Below are positions 12,671 through 51,588 of a DNA stretch of 64,000 nt, in pieces. The notes under the pieces were generated by a model that saw nothing but the letters and a program-made list of their open reading frames with translations, had not been told where the DNA came from and ran no database searches. Source of the DNA: an uncultured Candidatus Saccharibacteria bacterium (GTDB lineage Bacteria > Patescibacteriota > Minisyncoccia > Phycocordibacterales > UBA9973); contig CAZBZO010000002.1 of the NCBI GenBank assembly GCA_964496425.1, forward strand, positions 66,450 to 130,449, read 5' to 3'. Each line of letters opens with the position of its first letter. Position 1 is the stretch's first letter. The position numbers and the translations under genes were made by a program.

Positions 12671-13018
12671 ATGGAATCGAAAACCTACCAGCTTAAGGTT
12701 TTCGAACCAAGTTTTGAAAACCAAAAAAAGAAAATAATAAAAACTTTTTGTTTCTCATTTGAAGATCAAAAGAATGGGAGCAAGCTTTTGGATATTGAAT
12801 ATTTCCAAGACCTGATAGGAAAATTCGATAAGCCCGTCAATAAACACTTAGATAAAGGCTATACTTTAATCCTAGCTTGTAAAAATTTCTCTGAAGATCA
12901 ATTGGCAACTTATTTTAAGGTTCCAAACGTGAAGAAATATCATCATAAATATGTTAGCGTAGAAGAACTGAAAAATATTCATCAAAAAAAATTTATTGTT
13001 ATTCAATCCATATCTTAA
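12671..13018 (+). CDS. hypothetical protein (AT-rich orphan)
   Basis: ATG ORF of 115 aa, lysine-rich. About 30% GC versus about 48% in flanking genes. Confidence 0.4.
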   Translation: MESKTYQLKVFEPSFENQKKKIIKTFCFSFEDQKNGSKLLDIEYFQDLIGKFDKPVNKHLDKGYTLILACKNFSEDQLATYFKVPNVKKYHHKYVSVEELKNIHQKKFIVIQSIS

Positions 13019-20737: not shown

Positions 20738-22174
20738 ATGGAAACAAAATACTACTATACAATCGGTCTTGAAATCCATGCTGAGCTCAACACTGAGACC
20801 AAAATGTTTTGCGACTGCAAGAATGATCCAGAGGAGAAACGCCCCAATGTAAATATTTGCCCAGTCTGTATGGCCCACCCTGGATCTTTACCGGTCATCA
20901 ATAAGGGTGCTGTAGAAAATGTGATTAAAATCGGACTTGCAGTAGGAGGCGTGATTGCTGATTTTACAGAATTTGATCGAAAAAACTATTTCTATCCTGA
21001 TATTCCCAAAGGCTATCAGATTTCTCAGTACAAGTATCCAATCGTTTCAGGCGGTCATCTTGCTGGGATGGCGATTAGAAGAGTGCATCTCGAAGAAGAT
21101 ACTGGCACATCAAAACATGACCATGGTGACTATTCGCTTCTTGATTTTAACCGCGCCGGTGTTCCACTCTCCGAGCTTGTGACCGAGCCGCATACATTCG
21201 GGTCGATCGATGAAGCTGCAAAAGCTGCACTTGTTTTTGCCAGAGAATATCAGCTGACTCTTATGTACTTGGATGCATCAAAGGCTAATATGGAAAAAGG
21301 GGAAATGCGCGTGGAAGCAAATATTTCAGTATCTAAAGAGAAAGATGTCCTCAATCCTCGACGTGTAGAAGTAAAAAACCTCAATTCATTTAAAAGTGTA
21401 GAGCGCGCTATTGCCTATGAGCTTACTCGGATGGTTGAGCTTTTTGAAGATGGAAAAGAAATAGAGATTGTTCAGGAGACTCGAGGCTGGGATGAACAAA
21501 AACAAAAAACATTTTCGCAGAGAAGCAAGGAAAATCTCGAAGATTATCGCTACTTTGCCGATCCTGATCTGCCAAAGCTCATGCTCTCTGAAGTCTGGAA
21601 CACAGAATCACTCCGTGCATCTCTGTCTGAGCTCCCGGGTGCCAAGCGAGATAGGTACAAAAACACATTTGGTATTAAAGACGAAGATATTGAGAGTTAT
21701 ATTGGGGACTTTATACTGTCAGATTTTTTTGAAGACGTGGTGACTGAGCTCGGAGAGGATACGGAAAAAATAAAAATTGCTTCAAACTATATTACTTCTG
21801 ACATGCTCGGACTTTTGAAAAAAAACGAAAACTTAAAAATACCACATGCACACAACTTTGCTGAGCTTATTGCCATGATCTCGGCGGGGGATATTTCTTC
21901 GCGAGCTGCCAAAGATATCTTGGCGATGATTGTGGAAGAAGATGAATCACCTCGAAAAATAGCGGAGGAAAAAGACTTACTTCAGAAAAATGATGAAAGT
22001 GCACTCACTGAAGTCGCCAAAAAAATTATCACTGCAAATCCCAAAGTGGTCGAAGACTACAAAGGCGGTAAGGAAACTTCACTTCAGTTCTTTGTGGGTC
22101 AGATGATGAAGGAAACGAAAGGCGCCGCCAATCCTGCTGTCGTAGCAAAATTATTTAAAGAATTATTGTCCTAA
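20738..22174 (+). CDS. gatB: Asp/Glu-tRNA amidotransferase subunit B
   Basis: YYTIGLEIHAELNTETKMFCDC...NICPVCMAHPGSLP GatB N-terminus. Start re-set to ATG (METKYY). Confidence 0.9.
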   Translation: METKYYYTIGLEIHAELNTETKMFCDCKNDPEEKRPNVNICPVCMAHPGSLPVINKGAVENVIKIGLAVGGVIADFTEFDRKNYFYPDIPKGYQISQYKYPIVSGGHLAGMAIRRVHLEEDTGTSKHDHGDYSLLDFNRAGVPLSELVTEPHTFGSIDEAAKAALVFAREYQLTLMYLDASKANMEKGEMRVEANISVSKEKDVLNPRRVEVKNLNSFKSVERAIAYELTRMVELFEDGKEIEIVQETRGWDEQKQKTFSQRSKENLEDYRYFADPDLPKLMLSEVWNTESLRASLSELPGAKRDRYKNTFGIKDEDIESYIGDFILSDFFEDVVTELGEDTEKIKIASNYITSDMLGLLKKNENLKIPHAHNFAELIAMISAGDISSRAAKDILAMIVEEDESPRKIAEEKDLLQKNDESALTEVAKKIITANPKVVEDYKGGKETSLQFFVGQMMKETKGAANPAVVAKLFKELLS

Positions 22175-22177
22175 CAT

Positions 22178-22609
22178 ATGATATACCTTCTCATACTTGT
22201 CCTCACATTTTTCATCAGTCAGACACTGAAATTCATCATACGGTATTTCTCATCGAGTACGAAAATTGATCGAGGGATCGTCTGGACATATATCTGGGCA
22301 ACAGGCGCGCCGAGTACACACAGTGCGATGCTTGTCGCTGGGCTTACGATGCTCTATCGTGATACTGGCTTCTCAGCACTTTTTGCATTTTGCGTGCTAG
22401 TAGCTGGTGTGTTTATGTACAATTTAGTGGCTGACCGGACACGAGAAATAATTGAAGAGAAATTCTTTGCCGAAGGAGATGAAGCTGAACGGAAAATCGT
22501 GGCTACCGGAAGAGTGCTAGATATTTCCGGACACAGTTTCTTTGATATTATTACAGGAATCATTACCGGATTTGTGTCAGCGCAATTATTATTAAATTTG
22601 TTACAATAG
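22178..22609 (+). CDS. divergent PAP2 / DUF212 family membrane protein
   Basis: TGAPSTHSAM matches the GGMPSSHSA motif of the YuiD-like family. 3-4 TM helices. Confidence 0.6.
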   Translation: MIYLLILVLTFFISQTLKFIIRYFSSSTKIDRGIVWTYIWATGAPSTHSAMLVAGLTMLYRDTGFSALFAFCVLVAGVFMYNLVADRTREIIEEKFFAEGDEAERKIVATGRVLDISGHSFFDIITGIITGFVSAQLLLNLLQ

Positions 22610-22613
22610 AGAC

Positions 22614-23696
22614 ATGGAAAATAAAAAAATCAGAGTTGGTATCAACGGTTTTGGGCGCATTGGTCGGGCATTTTTGAAGATCGCCTGGGAGCGGCCAGAG
22701 ATAGAGATTGTGGCCTTAAATGACTTAGGCTCGCTTGAGGCTATGGCATATTTACTAAAATACGACACCGTTTATCGTACTTGGAATCATGACATTCGTA
22801 CACGTGGGATCGAGGGTGAAGCCGCAACCAAAGAAGTCAAAGCTGGATCACTTTTTATAAAAAATTCTAATGGCGAGGAAAAAGAAGTCGTGGTGTTTGC
22901 TCAAAAAGATCCCATCAATATTCCATGGGGAGATGTTGGCGTTGACGTGGTAGTAGAATCTACTGGATTTTTCACGAACTACGACAAGGCCAAAGCGCAC
23001 ATTGATGCTGGTGCGAAAAAGGTAGTTATCTCGGCTCCCGCCAAGTCTGGTGAAGATGCCAGCGTGAAAGGTGAGACAATCCTCCTTGGAGTGAATGAAA
23101 ACAAATTTGGCACCTGTGATATTACTTCCAATGCTTCTTGTACAACTAACGCTGCTTCGCCCCTCATTGCAATTCTCCACGAATCAATCGGTATTGAAAA
23201 AGCAATGCTCAACACCGTGCATGCGTATACTGGTACTCAAGCACTGGTAGATGGTCCATCAAAGAAGGATTTGCGAGAAGGCCGTGCAGCTGCACAAAAT
23301 ATTGTGCCGTCTTCTACGGGCGCCGCTATTGCTGTCACTAAAGCATTTCCTGAGCTCATTGGACTTTTTGACGGTATTTCCATCCGAGTGCCAGTGCCTG
23401 CCGGATCTATCGTCGACGTAACCTTTATCGCCAAACGCGATACGACAGCGGAGGAAGTGAATATGATTTTGAAAAAAGCAGCGAGCGATCCACATTGGAG
23501 TAAGGTGTTTGCGGTGACGGAGGAAGCACTAGTTTCTTCTGATATTTTAGGCAACTCTCATGCCTCGATCGCTGATCTGGCTATGACGCGAGTCGTCGGC
23601 GGCAATCTAGTCAAAGTGCTTGGCTGGTATGACAACGAAATGGGGTATACCTATACGCTTGTGGATCATGTGATAAAAACTGCTAAAAGTTCTTAA
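22614..23696 (+). CDS. gap: type I glyceraldehyde-3-phosphate dehydrogenase
   Basis: INGFGRIGR NAD motif and SNASCTTN catalytic Cys region. Confidence 0.95.
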   Translation: MENKKIRVGINGFGRIGRAFLKIAWERPEIEIVALNDLGSLEAMAYLLKYDTVYRTWNHDIRTRGIEGEAATKEVKAGSLFIKNSNGEEKEVVVFAQKDPINIPWGDVGVDVVVESTGFFTNYDKAKAHIDAGAKKVVISAPAKSGEDASVKGETILLGVNENKFGTCDITSNASCTTNAASPLIAILHESIGIEKAMLNTVHAYTGTQALVDGPSKKDLREGRAAAQNIVPSSTGAAIAVTKAFPELIGLFDGISIRVPVPAGSIVDVTFIAKRDTTAEEVNMILKKAASDPHWSKVFAVTEEALVSSDILGNSHASIADLAMTRVVGGNLVKVLGWYDNEMGYTYTLVDHVIKTAKSS

Positions 23697-23726
23697 CAAA
23701 GAGTTACAAAAAGCGCATTAATTCCT

Positions 23727-24107
23727 GTGAAAAAAATATTTCCCAAGCTTATAATCATCGGTATTATTCTTGCAGGGGTTTCTGTTGGTCGTGGTGTGGG
23801 AGATTTTTTACTTCTCCTTGGCCTTCTTTTGATAGTTATTGGCACTATTGTCATACTAATAAATATTGCTAGAAAAAAACAATTTAAAAAACTTGCTATC
23901 ATCGCTATAGTAGTAATTCTCGTATGTCTCCCGGTAATCCCCGTAAAAAATAACTTAGATTTTCATGATGCAGCTATATGTCAAAATGTTCCAACAGAAA
24001 AAAGGTGTGCAGAGTATATACACCGTAGTTTGATTTTCTTATTATTAGCTCAAATATCTGAATTATCTATCAGAAACTATTCTGGTGGGATACACATGGA
24101 TGAATAA
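23727..24107 (+). CDS. small 3-TM membrane protein with Cys pair (AT-rich island member)
   Basis: 126 aa with three hydrophobic helices, then AICQNVPTEKRC. Confidence 0.4.
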   Translation: MKKIFPKLIIIGIILAGVSVGRGVGDFLLLLGLLLIVIGTIVILINIARKKQFKKLAIIAIVVILVCLPVIPVKNNLDFHDAAICQNVPTEKRCAEYIHRSLIFLLLAQISELSIRNYSGGIHMDE

Positions 24108-24110
24108 ATT

Positions 24111-24347
24111 ATGATAAAAACAATTATTGCCATCATTATTGTCGTGGGGGTATGGTATGCTTGGAGTCATCCTGTTGTGCCGTATAAAGGGGAGAAGGTG
24201 ACCTTGCAATCAATAGTTATGCCTTTGGTAAAAAATCATACAGTTGAAATTGGCTGTACGATGGAAGCTAAGATCTGTTCAGATGGTTCTTCGGTTGGTC
24301 GCCAAGGACCAATGTGTGAATTTGAGAAGTGCCCGGGAGAGGAGTAA
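24111..24347 (+). CDS. small single-pass membrane Cys peptide
   Basis: 78 aa with an N-terminal TM, then four Cys (CTMEAKICSDGSSVGRQGPMCEFEKCP). Confidence 0.4.
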   Translation: MIKTIIAIIIVVGVWYAWSHPVVPYKGEKVTLQSIVMPLVKNHTVEIGCTMEAKICSDGSSVGRQGPMCEFEKCPGEE

Positions 24348-24348
24348 A

Positions 24349-24522
24349 ATGGAAAGAAGAACCAAAATCATATTTTATATAGTGGTTGGTATACTTATAA
24401 TTTTATTTTTCATGCCTTTGATTCATTTTAAATCAAGTTCTGAATGTATTTACCCGCCTTGTAGTGGTATAAATACGCATGTATCTTTGTACAGTATAAT
24501 TCGTGAGATACTAAAGTCATGA
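24349..24522 (+). CDS. small single-pass membrane Cys peptide (57 aa)
   Basis: ATG directly after the previous stop. TM, then SECIYPPCSGINTH. The track ORF is extended upstream into the previous gene. Confidence 0.35.
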   Translation: MERRTKIIFYIVVGILIILFFMPLIHFKSSSECIYPPCSGINTHVSLYSIIREILKS

Positions 24523-24716
24523 AAATTCCTTTAGTATTTAAAATCTGTCTTTGCCTGATAATATTAGTTGTGGTGTCATGGTTCTTACCCCTTATTCCAT
24601 TAAAACAGGCTAGTATAATTCCTTGTGTGGGTACCTCATGTATTCCTACACAAACCCATGATCGTATGGTTACACTAAAGCAATGGATTCACGAGAAATT
24701 TTTCATAATCTCTTAA
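24519..24716 (+). CDS. small single-pass membrane Cys peptide (65 aa)
   Basis: TM, then PCVGTSCIPTQTH. 4-nt overlap with the previous gene. Confidence 0.4.
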   Translation: MKIPLVFKICLCLIILVVVSWFLPLIPLKQASIIPCVGTSCIPTQTHDRMVTLKQWIHEKFFIIS

Positions 24717-24722
24717 TATTGT

Positions 24723-24881
24723 ATGTCAAAAAGATTCAAAATTAATCTTATAGTACTTCTCGTTGCTATAGTAATCTTAGTAATAGCGTTTAAACCGACC
24801 GGATTGAGTTGGAGAGATTATCTCCATATTCCTCAATGTCTTTTAGGTTGCGTGTATACTAATAACTCTCGCGTAATTTAA
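24723..24881 (+). CDS. small single-pass membrane Cys peptide (52 aa, below track cutoff)
   Basis: Manually translated as MSKRFKINLIVLLVAIVILVIAFKP...PQCLLGCVYTNNSRVI. TAATG junction with the next gene. Confidence 0.3.
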   Translation: MSKRFKINLIVLLVAIVILVIAFKPTGLSWRDYLHIPQCLLGCVYTNNSRVI

Positions 24882-25384
24882 TGTCAAAATCATCTAAAAT
24901 TTTTCTGGTCGTCTTTAGCTTATTATTAATTGCTGGTATTTTGCTTTTAACTTCATTTGGTAGAAAAATGATAATTCATACCTCCGTAGGCTACGAGTCC
25001 ATTAAGTTTACTGAATCAATAAAATGGAAGCTCATTGAAGAAATAAAATGGAATCCCTTAACATCAAAACTACATAGCCCTAACAAGCAACTAACTGTAA
25101 CAGATATGGAAGCTGCGCAACAATATTTGAACGAGAAAAAACTCACAGCAACTATTAGCGATAAAATCCCAACAATTGAAATTGGTATCTATGATAACAG
25201 ATCTATCGTCCTAGAAGGCTCATCGTGTTGGGGAGGAGATTACTGTCCAAACAATGAAATAACGTGGATAGCTTTCTATAAAGAGCCTATCCCTGAGAGT
25301 GAGTGTGGATCCTCTGTGAGCGGTGATCCAATTATTACCGTAGCGTGGGGCCCGACATATCATGGCTGTTCACCTGTTCACTAA
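24881..25384 (+). CDS. signal-anchored secreted Cys-rich protein
   Basis: 167 aa, N-terminal TM/signal, SCWGGDYCPNN and GCSPVH motifs. AT-rich. Confidence 0.45.
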   Translation: MSKSSKIFLVVFSLLLIAGILLLTSFGRKMIIHTSVGYESIKFTESIKWKLIEEIKWNPLTSKLHSPNKQLTVTDMEAAQQYLNEKKLTATISDKIPTIEIGIYDNRSIVLEGSSCWGGDYCPNNEITWIAFYKEPIPESECGSSVSGDPIITVAWGPTYHGCSPVH

Positions 25385-25463
25385 TCTATGAAACTCATTT
25401 TCTTAACAAAAAATTATCAATGGTTCGAATAAGTACATTCGCTATATTTACACCAAAAGAATT

Positions 25464-25982
25464 ATGAAAATTTACATTGGCACCGATCACACAGGATTTG
25501 AGCTCAAGGAAAAACTAAAACCATTTTTAGTATCACTTGGGCATGAAGTGGAGGATAAGGGTGCATTTACATTTGATCCCAACGACGATTACCCAGACTT
25601 TATCCGGCTAGTTGCAGAAAGTGTTGGCCAAGCTCACTTTGGTGAAACTCTTCCTTATAAAGTAATGCTTGATACAGCAGGAATTATTTTAGGCGGTTCA
25701 GGTCATGGAGAAGCTATGGTTGCCAATCGAATACCTGGAGCACGCACAGCTGAATTTTATGGACCTCGACTTCCAGTCGAAGCCGTGGATGTGTCGGGGC
25801 GTAAAAGCGAAGATCCGTTTGAGATTGTGCGTTTGTCGCGTAAACATAACAATGCAAACATTCTCTCTATTGGTTTTCGTTTTGCCTCTGAAGATGATAT
25901 AAAGAAGGCGATCGAGATATGGCTTTCGACACCATTTGAAGGAGGCCGACATGAGCGTCGTGTGCAGAAAATTGATCTCTAA
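25464..25982 (+). CDS. rpiB: ribose-5-phosphate isomerase B (RpiB/LacAB family)
   Basis: MKIYIGTDHTGFELKEKL N-terminus and GGSGHGEAMVANR motif. Confidence 0.85.
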   Translation: MKIYIGTDHTGFELKEKLKPFLVSLGHEVEDKGAFTFDPNDDYPDFIRLVAESVGQAHFGETLPYKVMLDTAGIILGGSGHGEAMVANRIPGARTAEFYGPRLPVEAVDVSGRKSEDPFEIVRLSRKHNNANILSIGFRFASEDDIKKAIEIWLSTPFEGGRHERRVQKIDL

Positions 25983-26018
25983 CTACTTACTATTTTCTAT
26001 TAACTATTTACTATTCTC

Positions 26019-26711
26019 ATGATCGAAATCATTCCGGCAATACTGCCACAAGATTTAAAAGAACTTCAAACTAAGATCGCGCTTGTCAAAGATTACGTGC
26101 AAACTGTGCAGGTGGATTTTTGCGATGGTGTATTTGTGCCGTCGCGCACCTGGCCGTACGCCGGCAAAGATGAAGAATTTTTCCATCAGATTTTAAATGA
26201 AGAAGAAGGAATGCCGTATTGGGAAAACGTGGACTTCGAATTCGACCTCATGATTGCAGATGCGACCGCGCAAGCAGAAACATTTACTAAGCTTGGGGCA
26301 CGACGCATCATATTTCATATTGAAGGTGTACCTACTGTTCGCGAATATCTCGAAGGACTCGATTCATATACACGTGATATTACAGAAATAGGACTTGCTA
26401 TCAACACAAGTACTCCACTCTCCGAAATCATTCCGCATATCAACAATATTGATTTTGTACAATGTATGGGTATTTCACAGATCGGTTTTCAAGGCAATCC
26501 ATTTGATCCGAAGGTTATTGAAAACATCGCTACACTTCATAAAGAATATCCTGACTTAATAATCAGTGTTGATGGTTCAGTGACGCTGGTGACTGGTAGA
26601 GAATTGGTAAAAGCTGGGGCAACGCGGCTTGTTTCAGGCTCAGGCATATTTAAGGCTGAAAATATACCCGCTACCATTCAAGCATTTCAAATGCTCGATC
26701 AGGATTTGTAG
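26019..26711 (+). CDS. ribulose-phosphate 3-epimerase family protein
   Basis: DFCDGVFVPS, MGISQIGFQGNPF, VDGS and SGSGIF align with the Rpe motifs DVMDGHFVPN, SVNPGFGGQ, VDGG and AGSAIF. Confidence 0.65.
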   Translation: MIEIIPAILPQDLKELQTKIALVKDYVQTVQVDFCDGVFVPSRTWPYAGKDEEFFHQILNEEEGMPYWENVDFEFDLMIADATAQAETFTKLGARRIIFHIEGVPTVREYLEGLDSYTRDITEIGLAINTSTPLSEIIPHINNIDFVQCMGISQIGFQGNPFDPKVIENIATLHKEYPDLIISVDGSVTLVTGRELVKAGATRLVSGSGIFKAENIPATIQAFQMLDQDL

Positions 26712-26741
26712 AATTTCTGGAGTGGTTCTGGTATACTCTGT

Positions 26742-27617
26742 GTGCAAACATGTATGGAAACTCTTACTGATCAACAAACAAAAGACCTCACGCTAAAGGC
26801 CAATGAAATTCGCCAGTCAGTTCTGCGTTCGCTTTTATCCACTGGAGGCTCAGGGCACACTGCAGGACCGCTCGGTATGGCAGATATTTTCACCGCACTC
26901 TATTTTCACCTCATGAAGCATGATCCAAAGCGGCCTGATTGGTCAGAGCGTGATAGGCTCGTACTCTCCAACGGCCATATTTGCCCAATACTCTACGCCA
27001 CCATGGCTCATGCGGGATATTTCCCTCTAGAAGAGCTCCTTACGCTCCGTAAGCTCGGCTCCCGTCTTCAAGGCCATCCACATCGTGAATATCTTCCCAT
27101 GCTTGAGACATCGTCCGGGCCGCTCGGCTCTGGACTTTCGCAAGCGGCTGGGATGGCGCTTGCCGATAAAATTGATTTTGGAGTGAAATCATCTCGGAAT
27201 ATTTTTTGTCTTATGAGCGACGGTGAACTTCAAGAAGGTAATACTTGGGAAGCAATACAGCTGGCCGGTAAATATCGCTTGCACAATCTTGTCGCTATTA
27301 TTGATCGCAATAACATTCAGATCGAAGGTAACACTGAAGACATCATGCCGCTTGAACCCTTGGCTGCTAAATGGGAAAGCCACAACTGGCATGTGCAAGA
27401 GATAGACGGGCACAACTTCAACGACATCGTGGGCTCGGTGATGCGATCAAAAGCAGTATTTGAAAAGCCATCAGTGATCATTGCGCGCACCATTCCCGGC
27501 AAAGGCGTATCTTTTATGGAGCGTGATTATAAATGGCATGGCCGTCCGCCAACAAAAGAGGAAGGGGAGAAAGCATTAACAGAACTCGAATCTATCCGCT
27601 TGGCGATGACAAACTAA
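26742..27617 (+). CDS. transketolase, N-terminal (thiamine-diphosphate binding) subunit
   Basis: GHTAGPLGMADI, LSNGH and GDGELQEG thiamine-PP motifs. 291 aa (split-type transketolase). Confidence 0.85.
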   Translation: MQTCMETLTDQQTKDLTLKANEIRQSVLRSLLSTGGSGHTAGPLGMADIFTALYFHLMKHDPKRPDWSERDRLVLSNGHICPILYATMAHAGYFPLEELLTLRKLGSRLQGHPHREYLPMLETSSGPLGSGLSQAAGMALADKIDFGVKSSRNIFCLMSDGELQEGNTWEAIQLAGKYRLHNLVAIIDRNNIQIEGNTEDIMPLEPLAAKWESHNWHVQEIDGHNFNDIVGSVMRSKAVFEKPSVIIARTIPGKGVSFMERDYKWHGRPPTKEEGEKALTELESIRLAMTN

Positions 27618-40476: not shown

Positions 40477-40974
40477 ATGGATTCTCTCATCACAACATTT
40501 CACATTGACTGGAAGATCATGATCGCTCAGGCGATCAACTTTGCAATTGTCTTTTTCGTCATTTGGCGCTTTGCCATCCGGCCGATCAAAAAGCTGATGG
40601 ATGAACGCACTGCCACGATCGACAAAGGTCTCGCAGATGCCAAAGTCCAGGCTGAAATACTTGCTCGGACTGAGACTGAATACCAGGCAATGCTCACTCA
40701 AGCTCGTAAAGAAAGCCAAGAGATCGCGGCCAAAGACAAAAAGGAGCGCGAGATTGAACATGCCAAAGAGACGGAAAAGACTCGTGCCGAAGTCGCTCGC
40801 ATGATTGAAGAAGGACGCAAACAAATAGAGCTTGATAAAAATAAAATGATGACGGAGATCAAAAGTGAAGTCGCAGACCTGGTGATCGCCAGTACTGAAA
40901 AAGTCCTCGGTAAAGCCGTGACCCCGCATCTTGATAAGGAGATAGTTAAGGAAACCATCAAGGAATTAAAATAG
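40477..40974 (+). CDS. atpF: F0F1 ATP synthase subunit b
   Basis: N-terminal TM followed by a long charged helix. In operon position. Confidence 0.8.
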   Translation: MDSLITTFHIDWKIMIAQAINFAIVFFVIWRFAIRPIKKLMDERTATIDKGLADAKVQAEILARTETEYQAMLTQARKESQEIAAKDKKEREIEHAKETEKTRAEVARMIEEGRKQIELDKNKMMTEIKSEVADLVIASTEKVLGKAVTPHLDKEIVKETIKELK

Positions 40975-40975
40975 T

Positions 40976-41218
40976 ATGTCAAAAGGATTTAAAATTATTG
41001 GAATAATTTTAGGACTTATTATTTTAATGTTGTTGCCAATTTTCCCTGTTAAAGTAAGTTCATCCATTGAACATCCTTGCGCAAAAGAAGAGACAAATAG
41101 TGCATCATTTTTACCATCTATGCCTACGTGTTATGACTCTGAAACCCTTTTTGTAAGCCCTTTAATCCATATTATTAAACCCGGGTACCAAAAGTACTAC
41201 TTCGATTTCAGTAAATAA
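40976..41218 (+). CDS. small single-pass membrane Cys protein inserted between atpF and atpH
   Basis: 80 aa, TM, then EHPCAKEE...MPTCYDSE. AT-rich. 1-4 nt spacing to neighbours. Confidence 0.35.
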   Translation: MSKGFKIIGIILGLIILMLLPIFPVKVSSSIEHPCAKEETNSASFLPSMPTCYDSETLFVSPLIHIIKPGYQKYYFDFSK

Positions 41219-41222
41219 AAAC

Positions 41223-41636
41223 ATGTCTAAACGAATTAAAACAACTGAAATCGCTCGAGCTTTGTTTGAAGAAGCTAAAGGTAAAGATCATACAGCAGTA
41301 GATCTGCTTACGACAAACACAGTTAAGCTTTTGGCTAAAGGTGAGCTTGCGAAAGATGGCGAAGCCGTACTTCAAGAACTCGAACGACTGGAAAACGATG
41401 AAGCCAAGATCGTCCAAGCTGAAGTGGAAAGCAAAGGTTCACTCGGAGAACATGAATCAAAAGAGATAGAAGATTTTATCCACCACAAGTTTCCACATCA
41501 CCATGTCAGTCTGAGTCATACCGTAAACCCAAATATTATCGGCGGAGTGAAGATCAAAATTGGCGACGAAGTCTGGGATCTTACCCTCAACCGTCAACTT
41601 TCAAATTTAAAAACCCATTTAGTCACCGAAGTCTAA
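41223..41636 (+). CDS. atpH: F0F1 ATP synthase subunit delta (short form)
   Basis: Operon position, 137 aa, C-terminal IIGGVKIKIGDEVWD matches delta/OSCP. Confidence 0.7.
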   Translation: MSKRIKTTEIARALFEEAKGKDHTAVDLLTTNTVKLLAKGELAKDGEAVLQELERLENDEAKIVQAEVESKGSLGEHESKEIEDFIHHKFPHHHVSLSHTVNPNIIGGVKIKIGDEVWDLTLNRQLSNLKTHLVTEV

Positions 41637-41666
41637 TTTAATTATTCATAATTCACCAAAAGTCAC

Positions 41667-43172
41667 ATGTCCAATCAAAACTACGTTGTCGAAAGTCTCA
41701 AAAAGAAAATAGCTGATTTCTCCACCAGTCTGAAAGGGGAGAAGGTCGGCCGCGTCGTCGAAGTCTTCGACGGTATTGCCCGCGTCTCCGGTCTCTCTGA
41801 TGTTAAAGCATCCGAAATGGTGAACTTCGCATCAGGCGCCGTGGGTGTGGCACTCAACCTCGAAGAAGATTCCGTGGGTGTGATTGTGCTTGGTGACTTT
41901 TCCAAGATCAAAGAAGGTGAAGAAGTGAAGTCCACAGGCAAGATTCTTGAAATCCCTGTCGGTGATGCGCAGATTGGACGAGTGCTCAACGTGCTCGGTG
42001 AGCCGATCGACGGACGTGGTGCAGTCAAAGCCGACAAACAGTATCCGATAGAGCGTGTGGCCTCTGGTGTTATTACTCGCCAGTCAGTCACTCAGCCTGT
42101 GCAGACTGGTATCAAGGCTATTGATGCACTCATCCCGATCGGCCGTGGTCAACGCGAGCTTTTGATCGGAGATCGTCAGACAGGAAAGACTGCTATCGCT
42201 ATCGACACTATTCTCAACCAAAAAGGTCAGAACCTTATCTGTGTCTATGTATCGATTGGCCAGAAGGACTCTAAGCTCCGCAAAATAGAAGCTCGTCTTC
42301 GCGACGCGGGAGCGATGGAATACACCATCATCGTCTCAGCTGGTGCCTCAGAGCCGGCAGCACTTTCATATCTCGCACCATACGCGGGTGTTTCGATCGC
42401 AGAATACTTCATGGACAAAGGCCAAGATGTGCTGATCATTTACGATGATCTTTCGAAGCACGCTGTGGCCTACCGCGAAATCTCGCTCCTGCTTCGCCGC
42501 CCGCCAGGTCGTGAAGCTTTTCCAGGAGACGTCTTCTACCTCCACTCACGTTTACTTGAGCGCGCATGTCGTCTCAACAAAGACTATGGCGGCGGCTCGA
42601 TCACGGCGCTTCCGATCATTGAGACTCAAGCCGGTGACATTACGGCTTACATTCCGACCAACGTCATTTCTATTACTGACGGACAAATATTTTTGGAAAC
42701 TGATCTTTTCTACAAAGGCGTGCGTCCTGCGGTCAACGTCGGAAACTCCGTTTCTCGTGTGGGTTCAAGTGCGCAGATCAAAGCCATGAAAAAAGTGGCA
42801 GGAACTTTGAAGCTCGACCTCGCACAGTTTCGTGAACTCGAAGCTTTCTCACAATTTGGCTCTGATCTTGATGAAGCTACACGGAAGACTCTCGATCGTG
42901 GCCGCCGCGCTGTAGAGCTTTTGAAACAACTTCAATACTCACCAGTCGTCGTCGAAAAACAAGTGGTGATCATGTATGCGCTTACCCGCGGGTATATCGA
43001 TGACGTGGCAGTCGATCGCTTGAAAGAATTCGAATCCGGCCTCGTCGACTACGTAAGCTCTCATGCCAAAAACTTTATGACCGAAATCCGCGAAAAAGGT
43101 ATGTGGAGCGATGCCGAAGAGGAGAATTTGAAGAAAGCGATAGGGGAGTATAAAGGGACATTCAATAAATAA
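41667..43172 (+). CDS. atpA: F0F1 ATP synthase subunit alpha
   Basis: GDRQTGKT Walker A and the alpha-subunit signature regions. Confidence 0.97.
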
Positions 43173-43176
43173 TTTT

Positions 43177-43572
43177 ATGGTGCCATTTTTTGAAAGCTTC
43201 CTTCATAAGCTTGGTATTAAAATCGAAGCAAATAAAGGAGATACTTTTAAAAATATTGATAACAAAAAAGGAGTATTCATTGTTGGGGATAATAATAAAG
43301 TTTCTGTAAACATGAAAAAAGATGAATTAAAAGAAAAACTCGAGCAAATACTTAACCTGGCAGATCCGCGATATTTTGAATTTTTGAGAAAAAATAATCA
43401 AGTATCAATCTTGTTAACTAATGATGAACTCTCAACTTTAAAGGAGATAGAGTACTCTCTTCTTAGTAATAAAATAGTGAGACTCGAAAGTAATGGTAAT
43501 ATGATGCAAAACAGACCAGACGGTAAAATGAGAACCGGTTGGGTTATTTATAAGTTACCAAGCTTTGATTAA
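43177..43572 (+). CDS. hypothetical soluble protein inserted between atpA and atpG
   Basis: 131 aa, about 28% GC. 4-nt gaps on both sides. Confidence 0.45.
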   Translation: MVPFFESFLHKLGIKIEANKGDTFKNIDNKKGVFIVGDNNKVSVNMKKDELKEKLEQILNLADPRYFEFLRKNNQVSILLTNDELSTLKEIEYSLLSNKIVRLESNGNMMQNRPDGKMRTGWVIYKLPSFD

Positions 43573-43576
43573 CTAA

Positions 43577-44488
43577 ATGGCATCAACGAAAGAAATAAAA
43601 CGTCGAATAAAATCGATTAAAAATACCAAGAAGATCACCAAGGCCATGGAGCTGGTGGCGGCTTCGAAGATGCGTAAGGCTGTGGGCAGTACGCTTGCTT
43701 CGCGCGCCTATGCAGGATATTCATGGGAAATACTTCAGTCACTTTCGCAAGCAATAGTAGACAGCGTCCATCCACTTTTCCAGACTCGTGAATCAAAGCG
43801 TGAGCTCATCATCCTCATCACTTCCAACCGTGGCCTCTGCGGCGCCTACAATGCGCAAATCATCCGCAAAGTGGTTGCTCGACTCCGAGATGCAGGAAAT
43901 AAAGACGAGCAGATTGACTTCATCACCATTGGCAAAAAAGGCGACGCAGCACTGCGACGTCTCGGCGCTACTGTCATCGCTTCTTTTACAGAGCTTGACG
44001 GTGTTTCACTTCGCGCTATTACGCCAGTCGTAGAGCTTGCTATGAATGAATTTGAAAAAGGCACCTACGGACGTGTGTCGGTGGCCTACACCGACTACAA
44101 GTCAGCGATTTCTCAAATCCCGCAAATCCGTCCGCTCTTGCCGATCTCCAAAGCTGACCTTCAAGCTGTTATCGAATCTGCGGCTGATACATCATCAAAA
44201 AACACTTCTCTTACCCCGAATGTACAGCCTACCAACTACCTTTTTGAGCCTTCGTACTCGGTGCTCATCAATTCTCTGGTTGAAAAACTCGCCCGTATGC
44301 AGGTCTACCAAATGATGTTAGAATCAGTCGCAAGCGAAGAATCGTCCCGTATGGTGGCTATGAAAAATGCTTCTGACGCAGCAGGGGAAATGATTGACGA
44401 TTTGACCTTGATATTCAACAAAGCCCGCCAGGCAAGTATTACCAAAGAAATATCAGAAATAAGCGCCGGTATGGCGAGTGTGAGTTAA
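43577..44488 (+). CDS. atpG: F0F1 ATP synthase subunit gamma
   Basis: MASTKEIKRRIKSIKNTKKITKAMELVAASKMRKA gamma N-terminus. Confidence 0.9.
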   Translation: MASTKEIKRRIKSIKNTKKITKAMELVAASKMRKAVGSTLASRAYAGYSWEILQSLSQAIVDSVHPLFQTRESKRELIILITSNRGLCGAYNAQIIRKVVARLRDAGNKDEQIDFITIGKKGDAALRRLGATVIASFTELDGVSLRAITPVVELAMNEFEKGTYGRVSVAYTDYKSAISQIPQIRPLLPISKADLQAVIESAADTSSKNTSLTPNVQPTNYLFEPSYSVLINSLVEKLARMQVYQMMLESVASEESSRMVAMKNASDAAGEMIDDLTLIFNKARQASITKEISEISAGMASVS

Positions 44489-44490
44489 TT

Positions 44491-46550
<2,060 letters not shown>

Positions 46551-46562
46551 TATTTTTACACG

Positions 46563-47006
46563 ATGTCATCTAATGAATTTGGTGAAATAACAAATCCAGG
46601 GGGAGAGGGTCACAAGAAAACACCTGAACAGGAGCTCTATCTTCTTTGCCAAAGTGGTTTAACTACTGGGAATGTTTTACCACCTGGGTTTGAATTGGAT
46701 GAAGGTGCTACGCTCTACTATAAATCTCACCATATTGATGAGATGAAATCACTTTTAGATGAGATAAGGCAATTTTCTTCACAAAATAAAATTGAGAAAA
46801 TTTTAAATCCTGTTAATAATGCAGAAGATAGTGTTCAAAATATCATTGCACAAATTCAAAGGAACATAGATTTTTCAGAAAGAGTAAATAGCGAGATTAA
46901 AATAAACCCTCCCAGGGTAGAAAATAAACTTACTGTCGAAGAACGAGAAAAAAGAAGGCAAGCAACGATAAATAAATTGAGAAAAAACAATGATAAAAAC
47001 TCTTAA
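46563..47006 (+). CDS. hypothetical soluble protein inserted between atpD and atpC (overlaps atpC start by 17 nt)
   Basis: 147 aa, AT-rich, with a C-terminal KR-rich coiled segment. Confidence 0.45.
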   Translation: MSSNEFGEITNPGGEGHKKTPEQELYLLCQSGLTTGNVLPPGFELDEGATLYYKSHHIDEMKSLLDEIRQFSSQNKIEKILNPVNNAEDSVQNIIAQIQRNIDFSERVNSEIKINPPRVENKLTVEEREKRRQATINKLRKNNDKNS

Positions 47007-50934: not shown

Positions 50935-51588
50935 TTATAAATAAAATATATTTGATTCCCAAATATACAGAGAATGATTTTGTATCCAATAATTTTTTAA
51001 GTCTTTTGGCATATTTTTTTCAAACTCAGGATGGGTGATAAATATATATTTATTAAACTCACCAAATGAACTTGAATAAAGGACTTGCCGAAGTAGCCCA
51101 TTATACTTCTCCAGTGTTTTTTTAGCGTTGAATTTATCATCCGGATCGCTAAAAAATGAATTGCTTAAAATCTCTTTTACTACTAATGGTTGGAGAAGTA
51201 TTAGAGAAAATTGCCGCGCACTAGTTTCTGCACGCGGTAAATCTGAGGTCCATATAACAGCTGGACCTAAATTTTTCTCTTTAAATCTCTCCGCAGCCAC
51301 TTTTACTTCTTTTTTCCCAAACTCCGTGAGTTGGAAACAATCATCAAGATATTCGGGTTGGACAACAAAAGGATAGATCGTAAGCATGGTAGTAGGATTT
51401 CGTTCATATGCATTGTACAACTTTCCTAGAAAAAGTACAGTGGCAAGGATATTAAAATTTTGGTAGTATTCTGATACAACTAAATACGCATCAAGAGTGG
51501 TGGGGAAAGCCTTGGCTTGTAGATCCATCCAGCAACTTGTCCAAAAGATAAAGTGCTCCATCCAAGCCCCTTGCAGGGAAAGATACAT
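50935..51588 (-). CDS. hypothetical protein (lone minus-strand AT-rich gene)
   Basis: 217 aa with no TM and no recognised motif. Start uncertain; internal ATGs at MEHFIFW and MDLQAKA. Confidence 0.45.
   Translation of the reverse strand: MYLSLQGAWMEHFIFWTSCWMDLQAKAFPTTLDAYLVVSEYYQNFNILATVLFLGKLYNAYERNPTTMLTIYPFVVQPEYLDDCFQLTEFGKKEVKVAAERFKEKNLGPAVIWTSDLPRAETSARQFSLILLQPLVVKEILSNSFFSDPDDKFNAKKTLEKYNGLLRQVLYSSSFGEFNKYIFITHPEFEKNMPKDLKNYWIQNHSLYIWESNIFYL

What the first reader, a model, noticed from the sequence alone, without database searches (positions are those of the whole stretch)
23727..25384. AT-rich island encoding a tandem array of six small membrane-anchored cysteine-pair peptides
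Six back-to-back ORFs of 126, 78, 57, 65, 52 and 167 aa, several overlapping by 1-4 nt, each begin with a hydrophobic anchor or signal. Each is followed by a short extracytoplasmic tail with a C-x(3-6)-C motif, often ending in T-H or T-N (PPCSGINTH, SCIPTQTH, CLLGCVYTNN, CSDGSSVGRQGPMC). The island sits between gap and rpiB and is about 30% GC. It looks like a paralogous family of disulfide-bonded surface micro-proteins or peptides, possibly bacteriocin-like, metal-binding or receptor-like. One member is below the ORF-track size cutoff.
Basis: seen in the sequence. Interest (0 to 1): 0.7.

Follow-up and report, generated by a model that had tools for sequence, protein, structure and literature searches.

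The report
Cluster of tiny cysteine-pair membrane proteins
Between two housekeeping genes of an uncultivated ultra-small bacterium (Paceibacteria, CPR) lie six small genes for membrane-anchored proteins with outward-facing cysteine pairs; three or four of them belong to an undescribed family limited to this lineage, and nothing here establishes what they do.

Summary
The six same-strand ORFs exist as described, between gap and rpiB. This is the lowest-GC stretch of the window (35.3% against 42.6%). Their tiling never arose in 1000 shuffles.

They are not one six-member family.
- p1, p3 and p4 belong to an unannotated family, together with a seventh gene at 40976-41218 inside the ATP synthase operon. 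The family has a basic N-terminus, a TM helix, a juxtamembrane P-h-h-P-h-K motif, two invariant Cys and a short hydrophobic stretch. An HMM built only from other genomes ranks these ORFs top among 632 window ORFs.
- p5 is borderline.
- p2 shares only the anchor and motif. It carries a different 4-Cys module and is the most conserved resident of the site.
- p6 is an ORFan that shares only the MSKxxKI start.

Orthologues of p1, p2 and p7 show pN far below pS, so these are real genes. p3-p6 are absent from the nearest relatives. The gap-rpiB junction is a gene-turnover hot spot across Paceibacteria.

There is no match in Pfam, NCBIfam, PHROGs, PADLOC, phages or plasmids, and no bacteriocin machinery nearby. 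My best reading is operon-embedded, N-in/C-out micro-membrane proteins, MgrB/CydX-like in architecture only. Function is inferred, not shown.

The parts
23727..24107 (+). p1, 126 aa. Two N-terminal TM helices plus one family module (residues ~49-126: RKKQFKK, TM, LPVIPVK, C-x8-C, hydrophobic stretch).
   Evidence: A 126-aa orthologue P0008 sits in the same gap-downstream slot in L088/L081. pN 0.28 against pS 0.68. The external HMM gives E 4e-9. Codon score 0.17 is in the gene range.
24111..24347 (+). p2, 78 aa. Signal anchor, HPVVPYK motif, linker, and a 4-Cys module CTMEAKICSDGSSVGRQGPMCEFEKCP. It is the conserved resident of the junction and has genome-typical GC.
   Evidence: Homologues P0002 (74%), P0011 (cluster member, ~86% identical by eye), and P0003/P0004 (63% over the module only). 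Present after gap in L088/L081 and L090. pN 0.13 against pS 0.62. In the AF2 model the module has pLDDT ~71-77 with short strands. No PDB fold match.
24349..24522 (+). p3, 57 aa. Family member: MERRTK, TM, MPLIHFK, C-x4-C, INTH, VSLYS.
   Evidence: External-only HMM E 3e-7 and distant-only HMM E 1.9e-6, rank 1 of 632. Not called in public annotations. Codon score -0.11, intermediate.
24519..24716 (+). p4, 65 aa. Family member: TM, LPLIPLK, PC-x4-C, PTQTH. Its start overlaps the p3 stop (ATGA).
   Evidence: External HMM E 3e-4 and 1.2e-3. Its tail resembles P0010 (PCIGEDCGKQTH).
24723..24881 (+). p5, 52 aa. Probable degenerate family member. It has the MSKRFKI start of p7/P0010, a TM, no P-h-h-P-h-K motif, and C-x3-C-VYTNN.
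   Evidence: External HMM E 0.0016, rank 5 of 632, but 0.29 with the distant-only HMM. Best non-self hit among 8543 ORFs is P0010 (E 0.007). 5' DNA similarity to p7, P0007 and P0010.
24881..25384 (+). p6, 167 aa. Signal anchor with an MSKSSKI start, then a ~135-aa ORFan ectodomain with 4 Cys. It contains a 24-nt tandem repeat (25004-25051).
   Evidence: Only itself is found among 5.8e9 proteins. No local homologues. AF2 pLDDT 44. Codon score 0.12. Called as a gene in public assemblies.
40976..41218 (+). p7, 80 aa. The same family, outside the reported coordinates: MSKGFKI, TM, LPIFPVK, C-x16-C. It is encoded between atpF (40477-40974) and atpH (41223-41636).
   Evidence: Relatives P0007 and P0010 occupy the same atpF-atpH slot in L084, L086 and L087. 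pN 0.30 against pS 0.70 versus L086.
23931..23948 (+). Juxtamembrane motif PVIPVK of p1. The equivalents are 24171-24188 (p2, PVVPYK), 24415-24432 (p3, PLIHFK), 24588-24605 (p4, PLIPLK) and 41036-41053 (p7, PIFPVK).
   Evidence: TM followed by P-h-h-[PHR]-h-[KRDQ] gives 16 hits in 940 kb over six frames, and 14 of them are these proteins or their relatives. A reversed-motif control gives 1 hit.
22614..23696 (+). gap (GAPDH), the upstream flank in the same orientation. There is a 30-nt spacer to p1.
   Evidence: Pfam Gp_dh_N and Gp_dh_C.
25464..25982 (+). rpiB, the downstream flank in the same orientation, 79 nt after p6. It is followed by rpe and split tkt.
   Evidence: Pfam LacAB_rpiB. Synteny in 60+ relatives.

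Best explanation
The island is an operon-embedded cluster of lineage-specific small membrane proteins in a Paceibacteria (CPR) genome.

Shown:
- Six tightly packed same-strand genes lie between gap and rpiB.
- p1, p3 and p4, plus p7 in the ATP synthase operon, belong to one undescribed family. Its parts are a basic N-terminus, one TM helix ending in P-h-h-P-h-K, a loop bounded by two invariant Cys, and a short hydrophobic segment.
- p2 carries the same anchor and motif but a different, conserved 4-Cys module.
- p5 and p6 share only the MSKxxKI anchor start.
- p1, p2 and p7 have orthologues under purifying selection.
- p3-p6 are missing from the nearest relatives.
- The site is a gene-turnover hot spot.

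Inferred:
- The array grew by local duplication of an anchor cassette, followed by rapid tail divergence.
- The proteins insert N-in/C-out, with a disulfide-stapled (or metal-binding) loop at the outer membrane face.
- They are co-expressed with the host operon.
- They act inside or at the membrane as accessory or regulatory partners of larger membrane proteins, in the manner of MgrB or CydX. They are not exported toxins or peptides.
For: Real ORFs and non-random tiling:
-.
- Codon scores are gene-like for p1, p2 and p6, and are the best of six frames for p3-p5.

Family:
- The profile of p1, p3, p4 and p7 against 1.84e9 representatives returns only p7 itself, a p7 orthologue, the p1 orthologue, and two further small proteins with the same motif and Cys pair.
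- Local HMMs add members in L011, L014, L015, L018, L019 and L069. The best reversed-sequence decoy scores only E 0.15.
- In the leave-out test, an HMM built from non-window members ranks p7, p1, p3, p4 and p5 as the top 5 of 632 window ORFs.
- There are two invariant Cys and a near-invariant Pro in 14 aligned sequences.
- The motif is specific.

Selection:
- pN/pS is 0.28/0.68 for p1, 0.13/0.62 for p2, 0.30/0.70 for p7 and 0.10/0.74 for the 53-aa orthologues.

Turnover:
- L088/L081 read gap | 64-aa ORF | p1 | p2 | rpiB.
- L090 reads gap | unrelated ORF | p2 | unrelated ORF.
- The window reads p1-p6.
- 39 of 63 relatives have more than 100 nt between gap and rpiB, against 18 of 60 for rpiB-rpe and 13 of 52 for rpe-tkt.

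Operon embedding:
- Overlapping or 1-6-nt spaced stops and starts.
- No terminator-like site inside the island.

Orientation and the missing SD:
- The acidic or neutral C-flanks against basic N-termini in the family alignment fit an N-in/C-out orientation.
- The genome barely uses SD sequences (1 of 47 genes), so the lack of SD upstream of these ORFs is not evidence against translation.

Architectural precedents:
- MgrB is bitopic, N-in, and depends on two periplasmic Cys (PMC8404706, PMC12648545).
- CydX is encoded next to its partner complex (PMC12648545).
Against: - There are no expression data.
- p3, p4 and p5 are not called by public gene predictions. Their codon scores fall between coding and non-coding.
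- No orthologues of p3-p6 exist, so selection on them cannot be tested.
- p5's membership is weak, and p6's rests on about 8 residues and 24 nt.
- The hydrophobic cores are only 14-17 residues before the first Pro. A cleavable Sec signal, and hence secreted peptides, is therefore not excluded. No signal-peptide predictor could be run.
- The disulfide state is unknown. The organism is probably anaerobic, and no Dsb-like gene was identified in the window.
- No partner protein is identified. The link to operons partly reflects sampling, because most loci were fetched through gap.
Confidence: 0.5

Rival explanations
1. The proteins are secreted, disulfide-containing peptides such as pheromones or bacteriocin-like peptides. 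On this reading the N-terminal hydrophobic segments are cleavable Sec signal peptides, and the 25-40-residue Cys-loop tails are released.
For: - The hydrophobic cores are short (14-17 residues) and followed by helix-breaking Pro.
- Some members have small residues after the motif (p7 VSSS, p3 SSS, L015 VKA) that could form a signal-peptidase site.
- Tails diverge fast, as is common for secreted effectors.
Against: - There is no consistent A-x-A-like site. p1, p2 and P0009 have none.
- Pfam and inspection of the flanking genes show no ABC/C39 transporter, immunity or modification genes nearby.
- No bacteriocin-related Pfam or NCBIfam match was found for any of the six ORFs.
- The conserved P-h-h-P-h-K motif and the post-loop hydrophobic stretch suggest a membrane-associated mature protein.
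- p1 has two extra TM helices upstream of its module, so that module cannot be an N-terminal signal peptide.
Confidence: 0.15
2. The proteins are surface-exposed, fast-evolving determinants of host or phage interaction in an episymbiont. They would be short receptor or decoy loops under diversifying selection.
For: - Members are lineage-specific, duplicated, AT-rich and hypervariable, and lie at a turnover hot spot.
- CPR-enriched families are mostly unannotated membrane proteins linked to cell-cell interaction (PMC6744442).
Against: - Ectodomains of 25-40 residues are unlikely to reach beyond the cell envelope.
- The orthologues that exist are under purifying rather than diversifying selection.
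- p7-type genes keep a fixed slot inside the ATP synthase operon.
Confidence: 0.15
3. p3-p5, and perhaps p6, are non-functional. They would be decaying duplicates or fortuitous ORFs in AT-rich spacer DNA, in which T-rich codons mimic TM helices. Only p1 and p2 would be real genes.
For: - Public gene callers skip p3-p5.
- Their codon scores are below the 5th percentile of real 55-codon chunks.
- They have no homologues among 5.8e9 predicted proteins.
- They are absent from the relatives L081, L088 and L090.
Against: - ORF tiling was reached in 0 of 1000 shuffles.
- p3 and p4 are hit by HMMs built from other genomes and keep the motif plus both invariant Cys.
- A 167-codon open frame in 37% GC DNA is very unlikely by chance.
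- Stop/start overlaps typical of coupled translation are intact.
- The locus is identical or nearly identical in three independent assemblies.
Confidence: 0.12
4. The genes are small hydrophobic toxins of the type I toxin-antitoxin or holin kind, which kill or arrest the cell by permeabilising the membrane.
For: - Their size and single-TM architecture resemble Hok-type toxins, and tandem arrays of such toxins are known (own knowledge; PMC12648545, section on small membrane toxins).
- There is a weak PHROG holin hit for p5 (E 0.21) and a PADLOC '2TM effector' hit for p6 (E 0.036), both insignificant.
Against: - They are co-directional and translationally packed inside housekeeping operons.
- No terminator or separate unit is evident, and there is no Rfam antisense RNA.
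- Orthologues keep conserved slots under purifying selection.
- There is no significant toxin or holin family hit.
Confidence: 0.05

Closest known systems
MgrB (47-aa inhibitor of the PhoQ sensor kinase, enterobacteria)
   Same: It is a bitopic small protein with its N-terminus in the cytoplasm. A short extracytoplasmic tail carries two conserved cysteines that are essential for activity and report the redox state. The TM segment takes part in partner binding (PMC8404706, PMC12648545).
   Different: There is no sequence relationship and no Pfam or NCBIfam hit. The organism, the Cys spacing (x3-x16 against x10) and the juxtamembrane P-h-h-P-h-K motif all differ. No PhoQ-like partner is known here. 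These genes are operon-embedded and multi-copy rather than a single regulon member.
CydX / CioY-type accessory micro-subunits encoded beside their complex
   Same: These are very small single-TM proteins encoded within or next to the operon of the membrane complex they join (PMC12648545). p7 and its relatives keep a fixed slot between atpF and atpH.
   Different: There is no evidence that p7 binds ATP synthase. The island copies lie next to soluble sugar-metabolism genes, not a membrane complex. CydX has no Cys-loop ectodomain.
Hok/Gef-type type I toxins
   Same: They are about 50 aa long, with an N-terminal TM and an extracytoplasmic tail containing Cys (own knowledge).
   Different: There is no antisense RNA or separate regulatory unit, and no family hit. 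The genes are packed co-directionally in housekeeping operons, and orthologues are under purifying selection.
CPR-enriched unannotated membrane protein families (Meheust et al. 2019, PMC6744442)
   Same: This is the same general class: families restricted to CPR, poorly annotated, and mostly carrying at least one TM helix.
   Different: Those families were built from called proteins. p3-p5 are below gene-caller sensitivity. I did not check whether this specific family is among theirs.

Membership tests
Undescribed 'TM / P-h-h-P-h-K / Cys-pair' small-protein family (defined here from P0007-P0010, L011, L014, L015, L018, L019, L069) | Significant score against an HMM built only from members outside the window | tested here: met
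   p7 1.4e-15, p1 4e-9, p3 3e-7, p4 3e-4. These are among the top 5 of 632 window ORFs. p5 scores 1.6e-3, which is borderline (0.29 with the distant-only HMM). p2 and p6 are not hit.
Undescribed 'TM / P-h-h-P-h-K / Cys-pair' small-protein family | Juxtamembrane P-h-h-[P/H]-h-K directly after the hydrophobic segment | tested here: met
   Present in p1, p2, p3, p4 and p7, and absent in p5 and p6. 14 of 16 hits in 940 kb over six frames are family members or p2 relatives. The reversed-motif control gives 1 hit.
Undescribed 'TM / P-h-h-P-h-K / Cys-pair' small-protein family | Two Cys columns conserved downstream of the motif | tested here: met
   both Cys are invariant in 14 of 14 aligned sequences, including p1, p3, p4 and p7. 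p5 also has a pair (C-x3-C) but was not in that alignment.
Undescribed 'TM / P-h-h-P-h-K / Cys-pair' small-protein family | N-in/C-out topology with oxidised (disulfide) Cys pair | not testable with these tools
   Only the positive-inside rule applied by eye. No topology or signal-peptide predictor is available, and there is no biochemistry.
MgrB family | Sequence homology to MgrB (Pfam/NCBIfam model) | tested here: not met
   No hit at E <= 1 in Pfam or NCBIfam for any of p1-p7.
MgrB family | Binds and inhibits a PhoQ-type sensor kinase | not testable with these tools
   No partner can be inferred from the sequence. I did not look for a sensor kinase gene near the island.
Class II bacteriocins / RiPP precursors | Leader peptide (double-glycine or equivalent) plus a nearby dedicated transporter, immunity or modification genes | tested here: not met
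   Neighbours are gatB, a PAP2-like gene, gap, rpiB, rpe and tkt. There is no GG leader in the sequences and no bacteriocin-related Pfam or NCBIfam match.
Type I toxin (Hok/Fst/Ldr-like) | Family model hit, and an independent unit with an antisense RNA | tested here: not met
   No Pfam, NCBIfam or PADLOC hit of significance. No Rfam RNA on either strand. The genes are packed co-directionally with overlapping stops and starts. A novel antisense RNA cannot be excluded.
Type IV pilin-like proteins (class III signal peptide) | G/A-F/M-T-L-I-E prepilin cleavage motif before the hydrophobic segment | tested here: not met
   By inspection, no such motif occurs in p1-p7. For contrast, an ORF in relative L013 shows FTLIELLVV.
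Mobile genomic island / prophage remnant | Integrase or transposase, att-like repeats, similarity to mobile elements | tested here: not met
   No such genes are present. There is no phage or plasmid DNA match. The only flanking repeat is a 15/17-nt match, and my estimate is about 0.6 such pairs by chance in the region.

The most novel reading that the evidence does not exclude
The TM / P-h-h-P-h-K / Cys-loop proteins are a CPR-specific class of operon-embedded micro-subunits. The member held in the atpF-atpH slot (p7, P0007, P0010) would be an unrecognised accessory or assembly component of the Paceibacteria F-type ATP synthase. The gap-rpiB array would be duplicated copies that have been re-targeted to other membrane partners.
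Probability: 0.12. Interest if true: 0.7.

Novelty: new variant of a known kind. Interest (0 to 1): 0.35.

Why it matters
CPR bacteria have tiny genomes in which a large share of genes are unannotated membrane proteins. Many proteins under 70 aa are never called at all, and here three of the six ORFs are missing from public annotations.

This locus gives a concrete, testable example. It defines a small-protein family by a juxtamembrane proline motif and an invariant cysteine pair. Members are inserted into the intergenic slots of core operons (gap-rpiB-rpe and atpF-atpH), and the family expands by tandem duplication at a recombination-prone junction.

If the ATP-synthase-slot member proves to be a functional partner of the enzyme, that would bear on how these fermentative symbionts run their ATP synthase. 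If not, the finding is a modest addition to the catalogue of lineage-specific micro-proteins, and a caution about gene-caller blind spots.

Tried and rejected
- **Family libraries.** Pfam, NCBIfam, PHROGs and PADLOC scans of p1-p7 and neighbouring AT-rich ORFs gave nothing significant.
- **Word-seeded searches of 5.8e9 proteins.** p2 has 4 clusters. p6 finds only itself. The p3+p4 profile finds nothing.
- **Pairwise tail alignments with shuffles.** Among the six island members only p3-p4 is significant, so I dropped the idea of a six-member family defined by tail similarity.
- **Structure.** The AF2 model of p6 without an alignment has pLDDT 44 and is unusable. The AF2 model of p2 with 4 sequences has pLDDT 66, and a Foldseek search against PDB gave no hit below E 5. 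The afdb50 library was unavailable. A PDB sequence search for p6 found nothing.
- **RNA and terminators.** An Rfam scan of 22000-27000 gave no hits, and no terminator lies inside the island.
- **Mobile-element idea.** There is no phage or plasmid DNA match. The viral-contig scan for the p2 module found none. The flanking 17-nt repeat is at chance level.
- **Metagenome scans.** The scan with the p7 subfamily returned only a contig I already held.
- **Extending beyond the window ends.** This added a few kb and no further members.
- **Shine-Dalgarno test.** I dropped it as a test of translation because the genome has SD-like sites in only 1 of 47 genes.
Full report
**Context.** The window comes from an uncultivated Paceibacteria (Patescibacteria/CPR) genome of about 42.6% GC. 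Its GAPDH is at most 75% identical to any species representative, and all of the best matches are Paceibacteria or Nomurabacteria MAGs. Nearly identical DNA occurs in independent assemblies: L082 is 100% identical and L083 differs by 2 SNPs over 3.4 kb. The gene order around the finding is gatB, a PAP2-like gene, gap, [island], rpiB, rpe, then split tkt, all on the + strand.

**Observation.**
- p1 23727-24107 (126 aa, GTG start)
- p2 24111-24347 (78 aa)
- p3 24349-24522 (57 aa)
- p4 24519-24716 (65 aa)
- p5 24723-24881 (52 aa)
- p6 24881-25384 (167 aa)

Stops and starts overlap (p3/p4 by ATGA, p5/p6 by TAATG) or are 1-6 nt apart. Each ORF starts with Lys/Arg followed by a hydrophobic segment. 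p1 has three such segments, with a strongly basic loop (ARKKQFKK) before the third. That arrangement puts its tail on the same side as the tails of the others.

The island is 35.3% GC and is the lowest-GC stretch of its length in the window. p2 alone matches the genome mean at 42.6%. Cys is enriched 6-fold in the tails. ORF tiling of the p3-p5 stretch was never matched in 1000 dinucleotide shuffles.

Codon-usage scores are gene-like for p1, p2 and p6. They are intermediate for p3-p5, although the annotated frame is the best of the six frames in each case. The genome has almost no Shine-Dalgarno sites (1 of 47 genes), so their absence here means nothing. Public gene calls include p1, p2 and p6 but skip p3-p5.

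Tail-only alignments with shuffles are significant only for p3 against p4 (1/1000). A broader pattern does emerge, though.

- An ORF elsewhere in the window, p7 at 40976-41218, reads MSKGFKIIGIILGLIILMLLPIFPVK...C...C. It shares the LP-h-h-P-h-K juxtamembrane motif with p1 (LPVIPVK), p4 (LPLIPLK) and p3 (MPLIHFK), and the MSKxFKI start with p5.
- A profile of p1 (module only), p3, p4 and p7 was searched against 1.84 billion cluster representatives. It returned just five proteins:
  - p7 itself
  - P0007, a 186-aa p7 orthologue
  - P0008, the 126-aa p1 orthologue
  - P0009 (...LPIVPVKIQVLCIKGPCYP...)
  - P0010 (MSKGFKI..LPVCPTQ..PCIGEDCGKQTH...), which combines the p7/p5-type start with the p3/p4-type C-x4-C-x3-QTH tail
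- Local HMM searches of all ORFs in about 0.95 Mb of related loci added members in L015, L014, L011, L069, L018 and a tandem pair in L019. The best reversed-sequence decoy scored only E 0.15.
- In the decisive leave-out test, an HMM built only from non-window members ranks p7, p1, p3, p4 and p5 as the five best of 632 window ORFs. Their E-values are 1.4e-15, 4e-9, 3e-7, 3e-4 and 1.6e-3. With only the distant members, p3, p7 and p4 remain the top three.
- The 14-sequence alignment has two invariant Cys and one near-invariant Pro.
- A relaxed motif scan (TM followed by P-h-h-[PHR]-h-[KRDQ]) gives 16 hits in 940 kb over six frames. Fourteen of these are family members or p2 and its orthologues (p2 reads HPVVPYK). 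A reversed-motif control gives one hit.

My resulting classification is as follows:
- p1, p3, p4 and p7 are family members.
- p5 is probably a degenerate member.
- p2 shares the anchor and motif, but its ectodomain is a distinct 4-Cys module (CTMEAKICSDGSxVGRxGPxCEFEKCP). That module also occurs fused to another Cys-rich segment in P0003 and P0004.
- p6 shares only the first ~8 residues and 24 nt with p5 and p7. Otherwise it is an ORFan.

**Are they genes?** Orthologue pairs show non-synonymous change far below the (saturated) synonymous change:
- p1: pN 0.28 against pS 0.68
- p2: 0.13 against 0.62, as conserved as GAPDH in the same genome pair
- p7 against L086: 0.30 against 0.70
- 53-aa members L011 against L069: 0.10 against 0.74

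For p3-p6 no orthologue exists. Their status therefore rests on family membership (p3, p4), ORF statistics and intact coupling signals.

**Evolution of the site.** The nearest relatives differ in content:
- L088/L081 carry gap | 64-aa ORF | p1 | p2 | rpiB.
- L090 carries gap | unrelated 68-aa ORF | p2 | unrelated ORF.

p2 is therefore the stable resident, p1 is older than the window species, and p3-p6 are specific to it.

Across 63 Paceibacteria loci, 39 have more than 100 nt between gap and rpiB. The cargo reaches about 4 kb and is heterogeneous: MazG-like genes, toxin-antitoxin pairs, other small TM families, and large secreted proteins. By comparison, 18 of 60 loci have such gaps at rpiB-rpe and 13 of 52 at rpe-tkt.

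Family members recur in these slots:
- after gap in L014 and L015
- between rpiB and rpe in L011, L018, L019 and L069
- between atpF and atpH in the window, L084, L086 and L087

There is no integrase, no phage or plasmid similarity, and no significant flanking repeat. Local duplication and divergence is therefore more likely than import of a mobile element. The low GC3 (0.24-0.34 against 0.39) fits young or weakly expressed genes.

**Mechanism.** What is shown is the architecture and conservation pattern: a basic N-terminus, a TM helix whose outer end is P-h-h-P-h-K, a 3-16-residue loop bounded by invariant Cys, and then a short hydrophobic or amphipathic stretch (VSLY-like).

What is inferred:
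- N-in/C-out insertion. The N-termini are basic, and the C-flanks are acidic or neutral, strikingly so in the 53-aa subgroup.
- A disulfide-stapled, or possibly metal-binding, juxtamembrane loop.
- Co-expression with the host operon.
- Action within the membrane plane as a partner of larger proteins.

The closest working analogies are MgrB and operon-encoded micro-subunits such as CydX. MgrB is bitopic and N-in, and its two periplasmic Cys are essential and redox-sensitive (PMC8404706, PMC12648545). Neither is a homologue, since there are no model hits.

The main rival is that the hydrophobic segments are cleavable signal peptides and the tails are secreted. The short hydrophobic cores leave this open. 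However, the lack of a consistent cleavage motif, the position of p1's module after two other TM helices, and the absence of export or immunity genes all argue against a bacteriocin system. Toxin, surface-variation and pseudo-ORF readings are scored lower, for the reasons given under the rival explanations.

**Novelty and verdict.** The family has no Pfam, NCBIfam, PHROG or PADLOC model and no source-given name. It appears restricted to a subclade of Paceibacteria. It is a new family within a well-known general class, the small bitopic membrane proteins that are abundant and unannotated in CPR (PMC6744442).

Interest is moderate to low, unless the ATP-synthase-slot member turns out to be a functional partner of that enzyme.

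Noticed in passing
window 40976-47006: In the ATP synthase operon, four junctions between conserved genes hold an AT-rich, unannotated ORF. They are p7 (40976-41218, between atpF and atpH), 43177-43572 (131 aa, GC 0.30, between atpA and atpG), 44491-45183 (230 aa, signal anchor plus 4 Cys, GC 0.34, between atpG and atpD) and 46563-47006 (147 aa, GC 0.33, between atpD and atpC). Relative L086 also has inserted ORFs at equivalent junctions, but without detectable sequence similarity.
   Followed up: partly
window, all gene starts (e.g. 10889, 31584, 34416, 49430, 52695): Only 1 of 47 genes has an SD-like site. Several genes have a TATAAT/TATACT-like box 6-12 nt upstream of the ATG, which suggests leaderless or very short-leader mRNAs.
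   Followed up: partly
L021, L026, L027, L036, L042, L051 (gap-rpiB interval); L026, L041, L052: Other gene families recur at the same gap-rpiB hot spot in relatives. One is a ~100-aa MazG-like protein (MESYNKLVRDKIPEILD...). Another is a different small multi-TM family ending in GWIYGKIKNRK. HicA/HicB-like and nucleotidyltransferase/HEPN-like pairs also occur (L009, L063).
   Followed up: no
window 23690-23706 and 25400-25416: An imperfect 17-nt direct repeat (TTCTTAACAAAGAGTTA / TTCTTAACAAAAAATTA, 15/17) brackets the island exactly. The first copy overlaps the gap stop codon. By my estimate about 0.6 such pairs are expected by chance in the region, so it may be meaningless.
   Followed up: partly
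window 25004-25051: A 24-nt tandem duplication inside p6 encodes KFTESIKW / KLIEEIKW.
   Followed up: no
L019 7988-8391: Relative L019 carries a tandem pair of family members (72 aa and 54 aa) between rpiB and rpe. Tandem duplication of this family is therefore not unique to the window.
   Followed up: partly
L091 (P0004, 3027-3431): The p2-type 4-Cys module occurs at the C-terminus of a 134-aa anchored protein. There it follows another Cys-rich segment (DEHGCIGSAGYSWCEAKSECLRPWE). The gene sits on a contig with three weak T4SS-pilin-like genes.
   Followed up: no
window 12671-13018 and 50935-51588: Two further low-GC ORFs (115 aa at GC 0.29, and 217 aa on the minus strand at GC 0.35) lie among housekeeping genes. 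The first has no family match. The second was not examined.
   Followed up: no
window 23693-23902 (- strand): A 69-aa antisense ORF overlaps p1, and a similar one exists opposite the p1 orthologue in L088. This is most simply a by-product of conservation of the sense frame, but I did not test it separately.
   Followed up: no
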